From the NCBI GenBank assembly GCA_963761305.1, contig CAVXGK010000002.1, positions 1,568,001-1,632,000 on the forward strand: a DNA stretch of 64,000 nucleotides, written 5' to 3'. Position 1 is the stretch's first letter, and each line of letters begins with the position of its first letter. This DNA is from an uncultured Gemmatimonadaceae bacterium (GTDB lineage: Bacteria; Gemmatimonadota; Gemmatimonadetes; Gemmatimonadales; Gemmatimonadaceae). The position numbers were made by a program, and so were the translations under genes. Positions 206 through 14,393 of the stretch are shown here, in pieces. Below the pieces are notes generated by a model. The model was given only the letters and a program-made list of their open reading frames with translations, was not told where the DNA came from and did no database searches.

Positions 206-2209
206 CTATCTCGGCGGAGTCTCGATCGTACGGCGCACTTCGATCACGATATGCGACTGGAGCGTCGCGCGGTCGCCGTCGTCCGACAACAGCGACGCCA
301 AGGCCGCCGCGCTCTCCGGCGACATCGTGACCAGATTCGAGAATCCGCGCCGAGCGATGATCGTGCCCGGTATGGGCGGATTCGTCGCGCGAATGTCCGC
401 CTGCATCTTGGCGATGATCACACGCGCGTCGGACTGCTGCTGCGGCGTGAGCGGAATTCCGTCGAAGAAGCGACGGAACGCCAGCTCGACCGCGTCGGCC
501 GCCGCCGTTGGACCGACGCCGCCACCTCCGCGCGCGCCGCCTCGTCCCCCACCTCCCCCGCCGCCGGGGAGCGGTCCGGCGAACCCACCGCCGCCGACGC
601 GCGCGCCGCGGCCGGCCGCGATTAGCAAAGTGGTATCCCCGACGAGCGTGGCCGATCTTCCGCCGCCGCGACCCGCGGCCATCTGCGGGGCGAATCGCGT
701 GTGCAGCAACGCGCGGTCGGCGTCGTTCGTGAGCAACGCTTCCAGCCCGGAGTCGGCCTGTGCTTGCATGGCTTGGCGGAGCGGTGCCGCGGCGACCAAC
801 GCCTTGATCGCGTTGGCCATCTGCGCGATCTGCGCGGCTTCCAGTTGGTTGACCAGATCGCGCGCCTTCGCTTCCTGATCCGGCGTCAACGCGATGCCGG
901 CGAACAGATGCTCGAAAATCGAGTCCTGTTGCTGGACGCGCAAATCGAGTTGGGTGGATGCCCGCACGGTGGTGTTGCCCGGCACGACGCGTCGCTCGAG
1001 CGTCGGGCTGGTCGCGAGAGCGGCCGAGTCCTGCACGCCGGGGGCTGCGACCGTTTGACGAGGAACCGAGTCGAGATCGCGTTGGGCGGACGGCGATGGA
1101 GTCGTTCGCGGGCGCTCGGGTGCGGCGACTGAGCGCGCCGGCGCGCTCGGTGACGAGGACGCGTCGACGAGCGCCGGTCTCTGAGTGCGTACCGCCGCCG
1201 AATCAGTGCGAGGCGATGCCGACGCCGGTGCGGGCGGGACGGGCCGCGGCGAGGTGCGCGCCGGGGCGGGCGGACGCGGCGCAACCCACGCCGCGGTCAC
1301 CACGACGACGCCGATACCCGCCACGCCGAGTCGCGCGATGCGCGACGCGTGAGCGCGACGGCGGCCGATGGCGCGAATCCGGCGCTCGAGCTGCGACGCG
1401 CGCTCGGCGAACGCCGTGGCGCCCATGAGCATGAGACGTCGTCGCGGGCGCGCGACTTCCAAGAGAAGGTCGCCGTACGAGCGGGCGTCGGCGTCGCGAA
1501 GCACGCGCGCGTCGCAATCCAGTTCGACGGCGACGCGCAGCCTCATGAGCTGCCACCAGAGTGCGACGTTCCACGGCATCGCGATCAGGGCGAAGTGCGC
1601 CGCGGTGAGCAGCTGCCCGTCGCGCGCACGACGATGCTCCTCCTCGTGGCGCAGCATGAGCTCGACCTGCGACGCCTCCATGGCGAGCGTCCACTGGGGA
1701 ACGACGATCGCCGGCGAGAGGGCGCCGACCAGCGCGGGTCCGGTCGACTCTGACACGAGAACTTCGACTCCTTGCAACGTGTCGCGGCGCCACCAGCGAC
1801 GCATCCAATTCAGCGCGATCATTCCGCAGAGGAAGTGCGCGACGAGCGCGGACGACAGCGTCAACCATGCGATCGTGAGCGGCGTGTCGGCGTGAGCCAA
1901 CGTCGCGCGCCAATTCCAGCCCGGCCCGGTATTCGTGGCGGTCACTGCGGCCCCGGTCGACGCGACCGCCGAAGAGTCCAGAGATGAGGAATTTGGCATC
2001 TCGGCGACGACGGGCGCTTGGGGCACGACGACGGCGGCGCGAGGCGCGAATCGAAACGCGGCCGCCGGCACGAGCACCGACAACAGCACAGCGCTGGTCC
2101 AGACGTGGCGCACCGGTCCGCGGCCGGCGAGCACTCGCTCGGCAACGACAGCGGCGAGCGACAAGGCGACTGCGCACAGCGTGCAGTAGAGCATCCAGGC
2201 GGCGATCAT
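206..2209 (-). CDS. BlaR1/MecR1-type M56 family metallopeptidase signal transducer with a non-canonical C-terminal domain
   Basis: TM segments, GPALVG...P.IVVP, LRHEEEH (HExxH), WNVALWW...ELDCDARV, LERRI. True start MIAAWM at 2209 overlaps the blaI stop (ATGA). Confidence 0.9.
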   Translation of the reverse strand: MIAAWMLYCTLCAVALSLAAVVAERVLAGRGPVRHVWTSAVLLSVLVPAAAFRFAPRAAVVVPQAPVVAEMPNSSSLDSSAVASTGAAVTATNTGPGWNWRATLAHADTPLTIAWLTLSSALVAHFLCGMIALNWMRRWWRRDTLQGVEVLVSESTGPALVGALSPAIVVPQWTLAMEASQVELMLRHEEEHRRARDGQLLTAAHFALIAMPWNVALWWQLMRLRVAVELDCDARVLRDADARSYGDLLLEVARPRRRLMLMGATAFAERASQLERRIRAIGRRRAHASRIARLGVAGIGVVVVTAAWVAPRPPAPARTSPRPVPPAPASASPRTDSAAVRTQRPALVDASSSPSAPARSVAAPERPRTTPSPSAQRDLDSVPRQTVAAPGVQDSAALATSPTLERRVVPGNTTVRASTQLDLRVQQQDSIFEHLFAGIALTPDQEAKARDLVNQLEAAQIAQMANAIKALVAAAPLRQAMQAQADSGLEALLTNDADRALLHTRFAPQMAAGRGGGRSATLVGDTTLLIAAGRGARVGGGGFAGPLPGGGGGGGRGGARGGGGVGPTAAADAVELAFRRFFDGIPLTPQQQSDARVIIAKMQADIRATNPPIPGTIIARRGFSNLVTMSPESAAALASLLSDDGDRATLQSHIVIEVRRTIETPPR

Positions 2210-2580
2210 TTGCCGGTCTCCCGCAGTTTCTCGTCGAGGAGTCGGCGAAGCCGTTTCAACTCGGCCGGAGTCACGCTTCGCTCGGTAACCAGGTGGGTCA
2301 GCAGCCGCTCGGTCGAACCGCCGAAGAGTTTTTCGACCAGCCTCGACGCCGCCGTGGCACCGGCGATGTCCTGCTTGACCCGGGCTTGAAAGCGGTGCGC
2401 CTTCCCTTCTTCGGTGTGCGTGACGTAGCCCTTGTTCTCGAGCACGGTCAGCACGGTGAGGACCGTGTTGTGCGCGAGGTCGTCTCGCAATCGTCCGCGG
2501 ACCTCGGCGACGGTCGACGGCCCGCGCTCCCAGAGGATGGCCATCACGTCGAGCTCTCGATCGGTGAACGTCGGCGGCAT
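2206..2580 (-). CDS. BlaI/MecI/CopY family transcriptional repressor
   Basis: FTDRELDVMAILWERGPSTVAEV...LAHNTVLTVLTVLENKGYV...LFGGS...ELKRLRRLL. Confidence 0.95.
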   Translation of the reverse strand: MPPTFTDRELDVMAILWERGPSTVAEVRGRLRDDLAHNTVLTVLTVLENKGYVTHTEEGKAHRFQARVKQDIAGATAASRLVEKLFGGSTERLLTHLVTERSVTPAELKRLRRLLDEKLRETGK

Positions 2581-2739: not shown

Positions 2740-3588
2740 TCAGCCCCGCTTCGCAGCGTGGTATTCGCGCCGGATCCGGTCGAGGTCGACCGTCGGCTCG
2801 GGGTAGCGCATCTTCAGCCCTTCGAGGGTCGCGACCACGATCCGCGCGATCGCCAGATTGCGGAACCACTTGTGGTCCGACGGGATGACGAACCACGGCG
2901 CGTGCTTGGTGCTGCACCGGGACAACGCGTCGTCGTACGCGTCGACGTAGTCGTCCCAATACTTGCGCTCGGCATAGTCGGCCTCGCTGATCTTCCACTG
3001 CTTCGACGGATCGTCGAGGCGGGCCTTGAAGCGCTTGAGCTGTTCCTGCTTGGAGATGTGCAGGAAGAACTTGAGGATGTGCGTCCCTTCGGCGGCCAGC
3101 TCCTCCTCGAAGGCGTTGATCTGCTCGTAGCGACGCGACCACGTGGACTTGGATACGAGCTTGTGGACGCGGGCGACGAGCACGTCCTCGTAGTGCGAGC
3201 GGTTGAAGATCACGACCTCACCCTTGGCCGGGACAGCGCGGTGAATCCGCCAGAGGAAGTCGTGGGACAGTTCCTCCACGGACGGCGCCTTGAACGCGAC
3301 CGCTCGGCAGCCCTGCGGGTTCATGGCGCCGAAGATGTGGCTGATCGCCCCGTCCTTGCCCGACGTGTCCATGCCCTGGAGGCAGATCAGCAGCGAGCGT
3401 GCATGCTCCGCGTAGAGCACGTTCTGAAGCTCGCGCAGCCGCTTGGTGTCGGCGTCGAGCACACCCGCCGCTTGGGATTCGTTGATCTCAGGATCCTTGT
3501 ATCCAGGATCGACGCGTTCGAGCTTCGTTCGTAATCCCGGAGCGATTCTGAAGCGCTCGACGTAGTCCATCGACTTCGCGGGCGTCAT
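2740..3588 (-). CDS. ppk2: Polyphosphate kinase 2 family (polyphosphate:nucleotide phosphotransferase)
   Basis: LQGMDTSGKDG Walker A, FKAPS.EE..HDFLWR, IFNRSHYEDVL, APWFVIPSDHKWFRN. Start overlaps the fucosidase stop (ATGA); alternative start at 3570. Confidence 0.93.
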   Translation of the reverse strand: MTPAKSMDYVERFRIAPGLRTKLERVDPGYKDPEINESQAAGVLDADTKRLRELQNVLYAEHARSLLICLQGMDTSGKDGAISHIFGAMNPQGCRAVAFKAPSVEELSHDFLWRIHRAVPAKGEVVIFNRSHYEDVLVARVHKLVSKSTWSRRYEQINAFEEELAAEGTHILKFFLHISKQEQLKRFKARLDDPSKQWKISEADYAERKYWDDYVDAYDDALSRCSTKHAPWFVIPSDHKWFRNLAIARIVVATLEGLKMRYPEPTVDLDRIRREYHAAKRG

Positions 3589-4919
3589 CGCGCGGTCACG
3601 AGCACGGCGACGCGATCCGGCTCGGTCGGTGAGGCATTCGGCAGCGTGAGCGTTACGCCGGTGCCCGACTCCGCGACGTCGACGCGCTCGCCGGTTCCCA
3701 GCATCGACGCGCGCACCACTCGCGCGCCGAGTGGCGGCAACGACAGTTGGCGATCCGGCCAATCGAGCACATGCACGAACACGGTGTCGCCGCGGCGCGT
3801 CGTCGCACCCCACGCTCGCGGGCTCACCGGACCGCCGCGTGTTCCGTAGATGGAGCGTCCGTACGTGCGCAGCCAATCGCCGATCGCCCGCAGCCGTTCG
3901 ATCGCTTCCGGTTGAATCGTCCCGTCCGGCCGAGGGCCGATGTTGAGCAGCAGGTTGCCGTCGTTCCCCGCGGCGCGGACGAGGTAGCCGATCAGCTCTC
4001 TTACCGACTTGAACTTCTTGTCGGTGATGTTGAACCCCCACGACTGGTTCATCGTAAGCGAGGTCTCGAGCGGCAGCGTGCCGATCTCGTTGGTGTTGAA
4101 ACCCGCCGTATTCGCGCCCGGCAAGTCCTGCTCGAACGTCTGTACGTCTTCGCCGGGCTTCGGCGCGTTGTGATGGTTGGGAACGATGAGCGCCGCGGGC
4201 TGAAGGCGATGGATGAGCGCGTACGTCTTCGTCAATCGCCAGTCGGCGTCGGGCTTGTCCCACATCCCGTCGAACCAGATGCCGCCGACCGGCCCGTAGT
4301 TGGTCAGCAACTCGGTGAGCTGTGCATCGAGGAAGTCGAGGTAGCGATTCCAGTCTCCCGACTCGGGGCGGCCGGTCGCGTGCCCCGTGCGACCGCGCGG
4401 CCAGTAGTCGGGATGATGCCAGTCGAGTTGCGAGTAATAGAAGAAGAGTTTGATGCCATTCGCTCGGCATTCGGCGGCAAGATCTTTCATCGGATCGCGC
4501 GCGAACGGCGTCCAATCGACGATGTTGTAGCGTGTCGCCTTGGTGGCGAACATCGAGAAGCCGTCGTGATGCCGCGCGGTGATGGTGATGTACCGAACGC
4601 CGGCGGCCTTGGCCGTCGCGACCCACGCGTGTGCGTCGAACTTGACGGGGTTGAACGCCGAGGCGAGCCACTCGTAGGTATCCACGGGAATGCCGCGATT
4701 CTCCATCACCCACTCGCCCTGGCCGAGCTGGCTGTACACGCCCCAGTGGATGAACATCCCGAACCGGGCGTCGCGGAACCACTCGCGCGCGGCGAGGCGT
4801 TCGGCCGGTACTTGCTCGCCGTTCTGTGCGCGGGCGGATCCGGCGACGGCCAGTTGGGATGCGGCGACTGCCGCGATGAGCAGCGACGCGCGAACGCCGA
4901 ATCTCCGTAACGTCGACAC
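3585..4919 (-). CDS. Secreted alpha-L-fucosidase (GH29)
   Basis: Signal peptide; WF.DARFGMFIHWGVYS, RHHDGF, YYSQLDWHHPDY, IWFDG (nucleophile), NLLLNIGP. Confidence 0.93.
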   Translation of the reverse strand: MSTLRRFGVRASLLIAAVAASQLAVAGSARAQNGEQVPAERLAAREWFRDARFGMFIHWGVYSQLGQGEWVMENRGIPVDTYEWLASAFNPVKFDAHAWVATAKAAGVRYITITARHHDGFSMFATKATRYNIVDWTPFARDPMKDLAAECRANGIKLFFYYSQLDWHHPDYWPRGRTGHATGRPESGDWNRYLDFLDAQLTELLTNYGPVGGIWFDGMWDKPDADWRLTKTYALIHRLQPAALIVPNHHNAPKPGEDVQTFEQDLPGANTAGFNTNEIGTLPLETSLTMNQSWGFNITDKKFKSVRELIGYLVRAAGNDGNLLLNIGPRPDGTIQPEAIERLRAIGDWLRTYGRSIYGTRGGPVSPRAWGATTRRGDTVFVHVLDWPDRQLSLPPLGARVVRASMLGTGERVDVAESGTGVTLTLPNASPTEPDRVAVLVTAR

Positions 4920-4935
4920 GTCGGTCGTTGGGCGG

Positions 4936-5322
4936 CTACGACGAGCGACTGATCGGCGTCAGCACGAACGTCGCGAGCATTACGAGAAGGCCGAGTCCAT
5001 ACCACTGCGACTCGTTCGTCAGCAGGAACAAGACGCCGCCGAACAACGCTGGAGCCTCGCCGATCACCCAGAGTTGAATGAGACCGTTGTTCCGTTCGAG
5101 TCCGTCGGGGGCGCGAGCCACGCGCCCGCGCATGGCAAGTACCGCGACCATCGCGAGCACGGAGAGCGCGACTTGCGCGTTTCGCAGCGCCGCCGGTTGG
5201 ACCGAGACCGGAAACCGCGCGCGCCAATGCAGGAACCAAACGACCGCGCCGAACGCGACGATACCAGTCCAGAGCGCGAGTCGGATGAGAGCGAGCGGCG
5301 CGGTCTGCGTTCGTGTAGCCAT
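4936..5322 (-). CDS. Small hypothetical membrane protein (about 4 TM)
   Basis: MATRTQTAPLALIRLALWTGIVAFGAVVWFL...; hydrophobic segments; GAGG RBS upstream of ATG 5322. Confidence 0.7.
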   Translation of the reverse strand: MATRTQTAPLALIRLALWTGIVAFGAVVWFLHWRARFPVSVQPAALRNAQVALSVLAMVAVLAMRGRVARAPDGLERNNGLIQLWVIGEAPALFGGVLFLLTNESQWYGLGLLVMLATFVLTPISRSS

Positions 5323-5448
5323 CGCGCACCTCGTGTGGGGGGAGGGACGTCGGCGAAGAACGTACGCGCCGACCGGCGGGGCGGACAAGCGCCGAGGGGG
5401 GAACGCGTCGCGCTTGACGAACGATCCCGATCTTCGCATCGTGCATGC

Positions 5449-5589
5449 GGCGCCGATCCGCGCCCAACCTCTCGAGACTCCGCCCCAGCCGGAGTCGAGT
5501 GCGAGGCAAAGGGGGGCAGACTCCCGGATCCGTTCGTCGGCCCTTTGCGTCACCGCGTGCGCTGCTGGGGGGTGGCCCGTGGTGTAGCC
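5449..5589 (+). ncRNA. Candidate structured 5' leader RNA (multi-stem, possible pseudoknot)
   Basis: Stems GACTCCG/CGGAGTC (5476-5482/5490-5496) and GCAAAGGG/CCCTTTGC (5506-5513/5541-5548). Loop CCCCAGC (5483-5489) is complementary to GCTGGGG (5564-5570). Upstream TTGACG-17-CATCGT (5414-5442). Confidence 0.55.
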
Positions 5590-5604
5590 AAAGGAGACCA
5601 GACG

Positions 5605-6314
5605 ATGCCCAGCCAGAAAGACTTGAAGCGCCTCGTGCGCGCTCGTATGCAGAAAACCGGCGAGGCCTACACCGCCGCCCGCGCTCAACTGCTCGCCAAG
5701 CCTTCGCGTGCACGCACCACGAAAGAGACCGCGCGTTCCGCGCCACCCGCCGCGACTACCCCAAGCTCGCCGGAATGAGCGACGTGATCGTCAAACAGAA
5801 AACAGGCGGCACGTGGGACCGATGGGTCCGCGCGCTCGATCAACTCGGCGCTGCTGACATGAAGCACCGAGACATCGTGGACGTCCTGCGCACGAAGTAC
5901 AAGGCGGACGCATGGTGGTCGCAGATGGTGACCGTCGGCTATGAGCGCATCAAGGGGTTGCGTGCGCGCGGCCAACGGCGTGACGGCAGCTATGCGGCGA
6001 CCAAGTCGCGGACGTTCAACGTCCCGGTCGCCACCCTGCACCGCGCCTTCGCCGATGCAAGCCTTCGTCGCCGATGGTTGGACGAGCCGGGCGTGAAGGT
6101 CCGCACATCGATTCCACCAAAGTCGGTGCGACTCGGCTGCGACGCGGCATCGTGGCAATCGGCTTCACGGCGAAGGGCGAGGCGAAGCACGGTCGAGTTG
6201 AGCCACGCCAAGCTGCCGAGCAAGGAGGCCGCGGCGAAGGTGAAGCGCGAGTGGTCCGAACGGTTGGCTGCGCTCGCCAACATCGTGTCTCCATCGGGGC
6301 GCGCGCGTGATTGA
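5605..6314 (+). pseudogene. Hypothetical protein with N-terminal 'KRLVRARMxKTGExYTAAR' domain and DUF4287/SRPBCC-like body; frameshifted (decay or sequencing error)
   Basis: AAGGAG RBS at 5591, ATG 5605. Coding sense moves between frames near 5750, 6143 and 6187 (…DYPKLAGMSD…KTGGTWDRWV…WWSQMVTVGYER; GIVAIGFTAKGEAK lies in a third frame). Confidence 0.7.
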
Positions 6315-6358: not shown

Positions 6359-6388
6359 CGGCCCCGACGACGCCGTCGGGGCCGTTTT
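6359..6388 (+). terminator. Intrinsic terminator
   Basis: CGGCCCCGACG-ACGC-CGTCGGGGCCG followed by TTTT. Confidence 0.7.
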
Positions 6389-12398: not shown

Positions 12399-12452
12399 CG
12401 CACGCGTCCACCGCCTTTCCCTGCCGTCCAGCACATGCTACTTCAATACGGC

Positions 12453-14393
12453 ATGAACGCTCGCGACCTCACCGCCCTGGTCCACCTCGTCGGCTTCGGC
12501 ACCGGCATCGTGCTCTACGCGATGCTCGGCGTCATGACGCGGCGGCGCCTCTCGCACGTGACGGAAACGGCGGACAGACAGAAGGCCGATCGCGTACCGC
12601 TGGCGGCCAGCTTGCTCGGCGTGATCTGGAACGTCGGCGCGATGGTCGTCTTCGCCGCGCGCGACTTCGGCGCGACCTACGAGCTGACCTGGGTCGCGGC
12701 GATCGCCTACGCGGCACTCGGATTTCTTCCCGCCGTCGTCGTGCACTCCACGCTGCGAAGAACCAAGCGCGCCGATTTCGCGTGGTTCCTCGGCATCGCC
12801 TACTCGGCGAGCACCGTCGCCGCGGCGATGCACGTCGCTGACGCGTTGCGCGGAGAGACGCCCTCGTCGGCCGGTTTGCTCCTGCTGACGATCACATACG
12901 GTGTATTGCTCGGGGCGCTGGCGATCACGGAGCGTCGGCGTCCCGGCTTTCAGCGAACGATTCTCGCCGTCGCGCTCGCCGCCTTTGCTGTGTCGGCGCT
13001 TCACCTGAGTCGCAATCAGGGCAGCGCCGATCAGGGCCCGTGGCTCGTCGAGCTCATCGGTCACCACGCGTCGCTCCCGCTCGTGTTGGCGATCCTCTAC
13101 CAGGATTACCGTTTCGCGTTCACCGACCTGTTTCTCAAGCGCGCGCTTTCCCTCTTGGCGCTTGTCGGTCTCGTGTCGTTGCTGTATGCGCTGATCGCGG
13201 CGCCGCTGGTCGATCCGCACGCGTTGGCGGCGCGGCAACTGTCGCGCGACGGTTCGCATCTCTGGTCGACCGGCGCGCTGCTCGGACTGTGGATCGTCAC
13301 CGCGCTGGCCTATCCGTTCATCCAGCGCCGCATCTACCGATTCGTCGACCGCGTCATTCTGCGTCGCGCGGACTACCGCGCGTTCCGCGGCGAGTTGGCG
13401 AGCGCGCTGAGTGAGTCTCGGACGCCGGATGCAGCGCTCGAGGTGACCTGTTCTTTGCTCGGGATCGCGCTGGGAGCGAGCGGCGTCACGTGGCGGGCGG
13501 CCGAATCGCCTCGGGTGCAGGGCGACGCCGTCATCGAAGTCGACCCGCGGCGAACCGGCGCACTCATCGGCGTGCGGACCGCGCTCGATCCGACGTTCCA
13601 GATTCGAATCGACGAGTTGAGCGGCGGACGCACGCTCCTGTCGGACGACTTCGTGCTCATCGACGCCGTGGCGGCGCTGGTTGGCCGGCGTATCGACGAG
13701 CTTCGTCTCGAAGCGGAGCATCGCGCGCACGAACAGCGCGAACAGGAAATGCGACAATTGGCGGCCGAGGCGGAGTTGCGTGCCCTGCGCGCGCAGCTCA
13801 ACCCGCATTTCTTGTTCAATGCCCTGAACACGCTCGGCCATCTGATGCAGACCGCGCCCGAGCGCGCGTTGGACACGCTGTATCAACTCACGAACTTGCT
13901 GCGCAAGGTGCTCCGCCGGACCGATGGGGGCTTCGTTGCGCTTCGTGACGAGCTGGACATCGTCGAGGCGTATTTGGCGATCGAGCACGCGCGATTCGAA
14001 GAACGACTTGTCGTTTCCATCGACGTACCTCACGAGCTGTGGCATGCCCGGATTCCGCCGCTCCTGTTGCAACCGCTCGTCGAGAATGCGGTCAAGCACG
14101 GGATCGCGCCGACGCGCGAAGGCGGCCGAGTGTCCGTGTTCGCGCGGCGGTCGGACGGCGACGACGCCGACGCGTTCCTCACGCTGATCGTCTCCGACAC
14201 CGGTGCCGGCTGGACGGGCGGCAGCCTCCGCGATACGCGCGGCGGGGTCGGGTTGGACAGCATCGAGAGTCGTCTTCGACACTACTTCGGCGCCGCGGCC
14301 GCGATGGCGATTCGTCCGACCGTCGGCGGCGGCACGACGGTCGAGCTCTGCGTCCCGTGGGTCCACGACCGTCCAATCGCCGCGGCCAGCTGA
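12453..14393 (+). CDS. LytS/YehU-type membrane sensor histidine kinase
   Basis: Multi-TM N-terminus; AELRALRAQLNPHFLFNALNT H-box; LQPLVENAVKHG; VSDTGAG; GVGLDSIESRL. Confidence 0.93.
   Translation: MNARDLTALVHLVGFGTGIVLYAMLGVMTRRRLSHVTETADRQKADRVPLAASLLGVIWNVGAMVVFAARDFGATYELTWVAAIAYAALGFLPAVVVHSTLRRTKRADFAWFLGIAYSASTVAAAMHVADALRGETPSSAGLLLLTITYGVLLGALAITERRRPGFQRTILAVALAAFAVSALHLSRNQGSADQGPWLVELIGHHASLPLVLAILYQDYRFAFTDLFLKRALSLLALVGLVSLLYALIAAPLVDPHALAARQLSRDGSHLWSTGALLGLWIVTALAYPFIQRRIYRFVDRVILRRADYRAFRGELASALSESRTPDAALEVTCSLLGIALGASGVTWRAAESPRVQGDAVIEVDPRRTGALIGVRTALDPTFQIRIDELSGGRTLLSDDFVLIDAVAALVGRRIDELRLEAEHRAHEQREQEMRQLAAEAELRALRAQLNPHFLFNALNTLGHLMQTAPERALDTLYQLTNLLRKVLRRTDGGFVALRDELDIVEAYLAIEHARFEERLVVSIDVPHELWHARIPPLLLQPLVENAVKHGIAPTREGGRVSVFARRSDGDDADAFLTLIVSDTGAGWTGGSLRDTRGGVGLDSIESRLRHYFGAAAAMAIRPTVGGGTTVELCVPWVHDRPIAAAS

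What the first reader, a model, noticed from the sequence alone, without database searches (positions are those of the whole stretch)
5414..5700. Pseudoknot-capable leader RNA paired with a basic 'RARMxKTGE' N-terminal domain
Seen: a promoter-like TTGACG-17-CATCGT lies ~160 nt before a strong AAGGAG/ATG. The leader has a closing helix (CCGCG 5459-5463 with CGTGG 5578-5582), hairpin GACTCCG/CGGAGTC, and an 8-bp helix GCAAAGGG/CCCTTTGC. The whole 7-nt loop CCCCAGC is perfectly complementary to GCTGGGG at 5564-5570. The same G-run can instead pair with ACCTCTC (5467-5473), giving two mutually exclusive folds just upstream of the RBS. The protein starts with a short basic helical module (MPSQKDLKRLVRARMQKTGEAYTAARAQL) on a linker. 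Inference: an RNA-protein module, either a riboswitch-like element or an autoregulatory RNA bound by that N-terminal domain. I do not recognise it as a known Rfam family.
Basis: partly seen in the sequence, partly recalled or inferred. Interest (0 to 1): 0.72.

Follow-up and report, generated by a model that had tools for sequence, protein, structure and literature searches.

The report
Double-pseudoknot leader RNA with portable peptide
This is one copy of a widespread, uncatalogued folded mRNA leader that is predicted to hide the ribosome-binding site and almost always precedes the same 30-residue basic peptide at the start of otherwise unrelated proteins, likely a portable unit by which a protein switches off its own translation.

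Summary
The 160-nt leader (5449-5607) has no Rfam match. Across 91 homologues from several phyla, covariation supports a 5' pseudoknot core, a 7-bp loop-loop kiss (5483-89 with 5564-70) and a helix that pairs the Shine-Dalgarno sequence. The RNA follows the N-terminal peptide, not the rest of the protein: 112 of 120 RNA-core hits precede the peptide, which is fused to nine Pfam domain types. Among 25 further loci, all 7 with the peptide had the RNA, and none of the 18 with the same C-terminal domains but no peptide did. The peptide is a predicted two-helix module with no Pfam or NCBIfam family, and it is not ANTAR. Best model (0.55, binding untested): the peptide binds its own leader and represses translation. 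The gene copy in this window carries three frameshifting deletions. The scan found this family before on other DNA (e1-6401972, e1-7316504 and others). I found no description in print, though two key supplements and a large preprint catalogue could not be checked.

The parts
5414..5442 (+). Predicted sigma-70-type promoter (-35 TTGACG, -10 CATCGT); transcription would start near 5448-5449
   Evidence: Sequence; -35-like word at a conserved distance in homologues; below the threshold of the promoter scan
5449..5464 (+). P1 hairpin (5449-5453 with 5460-5464); its loop forms pseudoknot 1
   Evidence: The 4-bp core pairs fully in 151 of 153 RNAs, with one double change; nearly invariant, so covariation support is thin
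5455..5530 (+). Pseudoknot 1: GATCC 5455-5459 with GGATC 5526-5530
   Evidence: All 5 pairs have double changes in A4, and the pairing was not in the model; longest duplex 5.9 bp for own partner versus 4.9 bp for foreign partners
5462..5513 (+). Conserved junction core GCCCAACCYC...GRGGCAAAGGG with P2 (5468-5471 with 5503-5506); predicted protein-binding surface
   Evidence: its conservation in the set is partly by selection, but near-identical cores occur in protein-selected loci
5476..5496 (+). P3 hairpin with 7-nt loop L3 (5483-5489)
   Evidence: 7 of 7 pairs with double changes
5511..5525 (+). P4 hairpin
   Evidence: 97.7% paired, with double changes at the distal pair
5542..5594 (+). P5: anti-Shine-Dalgarno CCTTTG 5542-5547 with CAAAGG 5589-5594, hiding the ribosome-binding site
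   Evidence: CCTTTG/CAAAGG in 38 and CCTTCG/CGAAGG in 11 of the 85 RNAs that have both words; SD pairing probability 0.77 versus 0.52 in shuffles
5551..5584 (+). P6 (5551-5557 with 5578-5584) and P7 (5560-5563 with 5571-5574), presenting the 7-nt loop L7 (5564-5570) that kisses L3
   Evidence: Perfect own complement in 110 of 121 RNAs versus 374 of 9598 foreign combinations; 5 of 7 kissing pairs with double changes
5605..5700 (+). N-terminal basic module of about 31 residues, predicted two helices (4-18, 22-31); invariant K8 R12 R14 T18 G19 E20 Y22 A25 in A2
   Evidence: third codon positions vary; no Pfam hit below E 0.068 and no NCBIfam hit
5701..6314 (+). Linker, DUF4287-like and AHSA1/SRPBCC-like coding region, broken by three short deletions (near 5753, 6144, 6191) relative to the same-genus copy
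   Evidence: rpoB of the same assembly is intact
6360..6387 (+). GC-rich hairpin followed by TTTT, a possible terminator
   Evidence: Read from the sequence; not listed by the terminator scan; not present at this place in the same-genus copy

Best explanation
The stretch is the 5' leader of a gene and one member of a conserved double-pseudoknot RNA family that is coupled to a 30-residue basic N-terminal peptide, and the two likely form a portable feedback unit in which the peptide would bind its own mRNA leader and hold the ribosome-binding site closed. Shown by comparison: the fold (P1-P7, pseudoknot 1, loop-loop kiss), pairing of the SD or start region, the near one-to-one link between RNA and peptide, and independence from the C-terminal domain. 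Inferred: without protein the short SD helix opens often enough to allow initiation. The finished protein's two-helix module would then recognise the conserved junction core, which is docked on the 3' domain by the kiss, and lock P5. The result would be a homeostatic cap on whatever domain is fused behind the module. A weak alternative pairing of the anti-SD strand with the SD-like AAAGG of the core may help the open state, but it is not conserved.
For: RNA to peptide: 112 of 120 core hits, and a 113th (L258) by eye. Peptide to RNA: all 30 loci from the window's phylum carry it, L003 only its 3' part. In the class of G302, 20 of 24 are complete by eye, 3 partial or divergent and 1 lacks it. 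Whole genomes: RNA in 20 of 151; 19 of these are genomes with the peptide and the 20th is a decayed remnant of both. Control: 7 of 7 loci with the peptide have the RNA (E up to 6.2e-7), and 0 of 18 with the same C-terminal domain types and no peptide do (best E 0.11). Nine Pfam C-terminal types lie behind the RNA plus peptide. The peptide is conserved as protein and is predicted to be a separate module on a disordered linker. The SD is more paired than in shuffles in 132 of 152 RNAs.
Against: No binding, probing or reporter data. RNA and peptide are adjacent, so they would be inherited together even if they never touched. No conserved second fold was found: the core versus anti-SD duplex is -9.5 against -8.7 kcal/mol shuffled and shows no covariation, so the ON state is undefined. 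L293 has a weaker module match and no RNA. A core this conserved and compact is also typical of small-molecule aptamers (own knowledge). Related genomes are not independent samples.
Confidence: 0.55

Rival explanations
1. One-component sensor with RNA output: the C-terminal domain (SRPBCC pocket, Clp N-domain, ClpX zinc finger, kinase, phosphatase and others) senses a ligand or stress and gates RNA binding by the module, as in ANTAR proteins, possibly with further RNA targets in trans.
For: Several fused domains are binding domains. Four ANTAR proteins appear among the top 30 weak fold matches (Z 3.5-3.9).
Against: Only one RNA copy in the window's genome, and RNA hits without the peptide are remnants or chance, so no trans targets were seen. 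The linker is predicted disordered. The ANTAR profile match is not significant (0.9%).
Confidence: 0.15
2. Orphan riboswitch: the RNA binds a metabolite or ion that signals a shared stress, and the peptide is a separate tag (targeting, degradation or DNA binding) that travels with the promoter and leader.
For: Near-invariant junction, A-rich linkers, two pseudoknots and a sequestered SD.
Against: The downstream domains share no pathway. The same C-terminal domains without the peptide lacked the RNA in all 18 cases.
Confidence: 0.15
3. Cis-acting nascent-peptide or translational-coupling element: the ribosome translating the basic first 30 codons, or the emerging peptide, remodels the leader of the same transcript.
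For: The module starts at residue 1, 50-140 nt after the core, in all 153 RNA-module pairs (this distance was a selection rule). It is rich in Arg and Lys.
Against: It is predicted to fold as a two-helix unit with a conserved turn and hydrophobic pattern. Codon use is free.
Confidence: 0.08
4. Stable ribonucleoprotein: the RNA is a structural partner (whole or processed from the leader) that scaffolds or localises the fused protein, and SD pairing is secondary.
For: The fold is more elaborate than simple feedback needs, and the transcript is predicted to start right at P1.
Against: The RNA always runs into the SD and pairs with it. There is no terminator or stand-alone intact copy.
Confidence: 0.07

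Closest known systems
Ribosomal-protein leaders (r-leaders; PMC7247131, passages read)
   Same: [quoted passage not shown]
   Different: The genes are not r-proteins. The proposed binder is a dedicated 30-residue module with no known second RNA target, fused to unrelated domains. The family spans many phyla, whereas that paper found only one of its 20 motifs in more than one phylum.
ANTAR protein-RNA system (PMC8164766, passages read)
   Same: A small helical RNA-binding domain fused to varied partner domains (own knowledge); actinobacterial targets often overlap the SD or start codon. An M-x3-G-x5-A spacing occurs in both.
   Different: ANTAR RNAs are two small stems with 6-nt A1/G4 loops and are found before many different genes. 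This RNA is 160 nt, has 7-nt complementary loops and sits only before the module's own gene. No profile homology.
Translational riboswitches with kissing loops or pseudoknots (cobalamin, lysine, preQ1, SAM-II; recalled)
   Same: Compact conserved core, loop-loop contact, SD control.
   Different: No Rfam match; linked to a peptide rather than to a pathway.
ColE1 Rop with the RNA I-RNA II kiss (recalled; PMC2602780 passages show Rop binding a kissing complex)
   Same: A helix-turn-helix hairpin protein and a 7-nt loop-loop complex whose sequence can vary.
   Different: Rop is a free, longer homodimer acting on two RNAs. Rop was not among the 50 listed fold matches, and dimerisation of the module is untested.
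COMPASS cluster 566,452 (bioRxiv 10.64898/2026.10.21.760802, section 6 and passages read)
   Same: A covarying motif directly upstream of unannotated proteins with a YndB-like domain.
   Different: There the YndB-like domain is N-terminal; here it is C-terminal, behind the module and a DUF4287-like domain. No sequence was visible, so identity could be neither shown nor excluded, and some other of its 1.5 million clusters may hold this RNA.

Membership tests
Any Rfam 15 family | Covariance-model score at the gathering threshold | tested here: not met
   No match over the leader at E up to 10; 0 matches in 10 homologous loci
r-leader | Lies before ribosomal-protein genes | tested here: not met
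   43 downstream proteins scanned, no r-protein family
r-leader / autogenous operator | Structured 5' UTR able to sequester the SD | tested here: met
   (comparative and computed, not probed)
r-leader / autogenous operator | The product of the downstream gene binds the leader and represses | not testable with these tools
   Only co-occurrence evidence
ANTAR system | ANTAR domain (PF03861) in the protein | tested here: not met
   0 of 42 members hit PF03861 at E up to 0.1; hhalign against 23 ANTAR domains gave probability 0.9%
ANTAR system | Dual stem-loop RNA with hexanucleotide A1/G4 loops | tested here: not met
   The loops are 7 nt, begin with a pyrimidine or G and are mutually complementary
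Riboswitch | Association with one metabolic or transport theme | tested here: not met
   Nine unrelated Pfam types
Riboswitch | Direct small-molecule binding | not testable with these tools
   Needs in-line probing
Riboswitch | Conserved alternative fold (expression platform) | tested here: inconclusive
   The candidate alternative helix shows no covariation and only a slight energy excess
Glyoxalase_8 (PF20066) N-terminal domain and its upstream region | Homology to the module and presence of the RNA | tested here: not met
   hhalign 0.5% against one sequence; no RNA-model hit in L275 or L276
Rop | Homodimeric four-helix bundle binding a kissing complex | tested here: inconclusive
   Not among the 50 listed fold matches, and all Z were below 5; no dimer prediction was obtained

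The most novel reading that the evidence does not exclude
A dedicated, genetically portable RNA-peptide pair: the RNA-level counterpart of a helix-turn-helix autorepressor and its operator. Bacteria of many phyla would have shuffled it onto hydrolases, kinases, phosphatases, ligand-binding and Clp-derived domains to cap or sense their levels, using a 30-residue peptide that reads a double-pseudoknot, kissing-loop RNA.
Probability: 0.45. Interest if true: 0.9.

Novelty: new variant of a known kind. Interest (0 to 1): 0.8.

Why it matters
Neither the RNA nor the peptide is in Rfam, Pfam or NCBIfam, yet about 840 genome stretches are estimated to hold the strict core and 4,311 representatives at 50% identity hold the module (many are short and may be fragments). 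If binding is confirmed, this is feedback control by a domain that exists for that purpose rather than as a side job of an RNA-binding protein. It would also be one of the smallest RNA-binding modules, a compact target for structure work, and a ready-made part for translational control in high-GC bacteria. The test is simple: a 160-nt RNA and a synthetic peptide.

Tried and rejected
Single-sequence folding gave no signal. A relaxed core pattern in viral contigs gave 120 hits that look like chance, with no module seen downstream in the part of the output shown. The strict pattern gave 4 viral hits, 3 real (nitrilase type) and 1 chance. A recalled link to leaders of Glyoxalase_8 genes was not found (with 0 of 151 genomes, 58, 87). 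PDB sequence and fold searches for the module gave nothing significant, and the ESM Atlas gave only unnamed clusters below 0.9. No relatives of the RNA-less L293 protein were found in viral contigs. Sequencing runs held only small shares. Contigs of relatives in RNA libraries cover the leader, but one runs on into the promoter, so they show neither expression nor whether the frameshifts are real. Paper searches without a description of this RNA; term searches in the main texts of PMC8632094, PMC11109978 and PMC5737381. The supplements of PMC11109978 and PMC5737381 could not be read, and those of the bioRxiv preprint are closed; they may hold the motif.

Full report
Observation. The leader alone folds no better than its shuffles (z = 0.21) and has no Rfam match at E up to 10. 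The ORF from the ATG at 5605 ends after 57 codons. Intact homologues are about 231 residues. Against the same-genus genome G131 the window lacks 1, 4 and 2 bases near 5753, 6144 and 6191, while the leader differs at only 4 positions. rpoB of this assembly lies in one open frame, so the copy is more likely a decaying gene than a noisy assembly, but reads were not available to decide. The genome holds one copy of the RNA and one of the peptide.

Conservation and fold. A search with the first 32 residues hit 34 of 301 genomes of the window's phylum; the closest named relatives are Gemmatimonadota. All 30 fetched loci carry the leader, L003 only its 3' part. Alignment A1 used 28 of them, leaving out L003 and L023. 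A covariance model built from A1 with nested helices only matched 91 places in 100 chosen sources. On that alignment, 93.8% of cells pair and 37 of 48 pairs have double changes, with 0 of 500 shuffles as high. The nested helices were fitted to the model and relatives are not independent, but the two pseudoknots were not in the model. The loop-loop kiss is 96.8% paired with double changes at 5 of 7 pairs, and pseudoknot 1 has double changes at all 5 pairs. An alignment-free test agrees: of 141 distinct RNAs, 121 had a hairpin my script could define (20 dropped); 110 of the 121 have the perfect complement of their own loop downstream, against 374 of 9598 foreign combinations. Loop types include CCCCAGC, CTCACGC, CCCCGGC, CCCCCGC and TCCACGC. 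P1 pairs fully in 151 of 153 RNAs but has only one double change. The SD region is more paired than in shuffles (0.77 versus 0.52; higher in 132 of 152), and the anti-SD word changes together with the SD word.

Link to the peptide. A strict core pattern gave 120 loci from 10 of 64 parts of the genome collection (about 840 estimated), with record titles from Actinomycetota, Gemmatimonadota, Acidobacteriota, Rhizobiales, Planctomycetota, Chloroflexota, Myxococcota and others. 112 of the 120 are followed by the module. Of the other 8, L258 has it by eye, L206 and L272 are cut short, L195, L219 and L235 are partial RNAs without the gene, and L180 and L230 have no model hit. In reverse, 24 module matches in 18 of 151 genomes of the class of G302 show by eye 20 complete leaders, 3 partial or divergent ones (L292, L296, L300) and one without (L293). 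The model, trained on another phylum, hit 9 of the 13 of these that I gave it. In whole-genome scans the RNA was found in 20 of 151 genomes. 19 of these handles also have the peptide, and G004 holds a 3' remnant followed by a decayed module start. The control: I took 15 module-free matches out of the 66 C-terminal matches, five nitrilase-type loci and five further module loci. All 7 with the module have the RNA and none of the 18 without it does. One of the 18, L320, is only a weak C-terminal match. L009 (G057), L279 (G478) and L288 (G469) come from unpublished genomes; they enter A1, the model and the counts, but no conclusion depends on them.

The protein side. Behind RNA plus module lie DUF4287 with AHSA1, carbon-nitrogen hydrolase, DUF1835, BtrH_N with DUF4872, PP2C, ClpX zinc finger, Clp_N, DUF2087 and APH domains, plus unassigned ones (43 proteins scanned; some hits are below Pfam's cut-off). 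Proteins without genomic context add WD40 and LRR. In a tree of 74 leaders the DUF4287 type falls in three separate supported groups beside other types, which suggests repeated swapping of the C-terminal part (30 rows were labelled DUF4287 by default rather than each scanned, and deep branches are weak). The module is conserved as amino acids with free third positions. It is predicted as two helices (pLDDT 84) followed by a disordered linker (residues 33-45), and the C-terminal part matches AHSA1/START folds. It has no Pfam, NCBIfam or PDB family. Weak fold matches include four ANTAR proteins (Z below 4), but the profile comparison is not significant. The module occurs in 4,311 representatives at 50% identity and at least 4,573 clusters at 90%. 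No conserved downstream gene was evident from a rough ORF listing.

Mechanism. Shown by comparison: fold, SD pairing, coupling to the peptide and independence from the C-terminal domain. Inferred: the module binds the junction core and kiss and locks the SD helix, giving negative feedback (0.55). The simplest common ligand for an RNA that ignores the function of the gene but never leaves the peptide is the peptide. Against this, adjacency alone forces co-inheritance, no conserved ON fold was found, and nothing was measured. The rivals are a sensor-gated RNA-binding regulator (0.15), an orphan riboswitch with a passenger tag (0.15), a cis-acting nascent peptide (0.08) and a structural ribonucleoprotein (0.07).

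Known systems and novelty. It would work like r-leaders (PMC7247131, passages) and resembles ANTAR systems in design (PMC8164766, passages), but it fails the membership tests of both. Riboswitch and Rop comparisons are recalled, apart from passages of PMC2602780. The searches listed under Tried and rejected found no description. A 2026 preprint (10.64898/2026.10.21.760802; section 6 and passages read) shows a motif before YndB-like proteins, but with that domain N-terminal, and its catalogue and two older supplements could not be seen. Earlier notes of this scan report the same family on other DNA; I recorded my reading before seeing them, and they are not independent evidence. Verdict: a real, widespread, apparently uncatalogued RNA-peptide cassette; a new variant of autogenous leader control on the best model; interest 0.8.

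Noticed in passing
window 5753-6191: Three short deletions break the gene behind the module, while the leader and module are nearly unchanged against G131.
   Followed up: partly
L195, L219, L235, L003, L315, L358: Remnants where part of the RNA, the gene, or RNA plus module has been lost; in L315 a -35-like word runs directly into mid-gene.
   Followed up: partly
G302 (L285, L296, L298) and G535 (L278, L295, L299, L300): Genomes with three or four module genes of different C-terminal types; cross-regulation between them is possible.
   Followed up: no
L293:1126-1593 (-): Divergent module fused to a cysteine-rich domain with no Pfam match; it has no such RNA, only a short hairpin over the SD.
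   Followed up: partly
L276 upstream of 1671 (-) and L275 upstream of 1501 (+): Glyoxalase_8 genes have long leaders after a promoter-like word; they may hold a different structured RNA, a possible parallel system.
   Followed up: no
L031-L033: Nitrilase-type cassette on three contigs of the viral collection.
   Followed up: partly
window 206-2580 (-): BlaI-like repressor followed by a BlaR1/M56 peptidase gene.
   Followed up: no
window 3585-5322 (-): Divergent neighbours: a small membrane-protein gene with no Pfam match and an alpha-L-fucosidase gene.
   Followed up: no
window 12435-14393 (+): Histidine kinase gene with PF06580.
   Followed up: no
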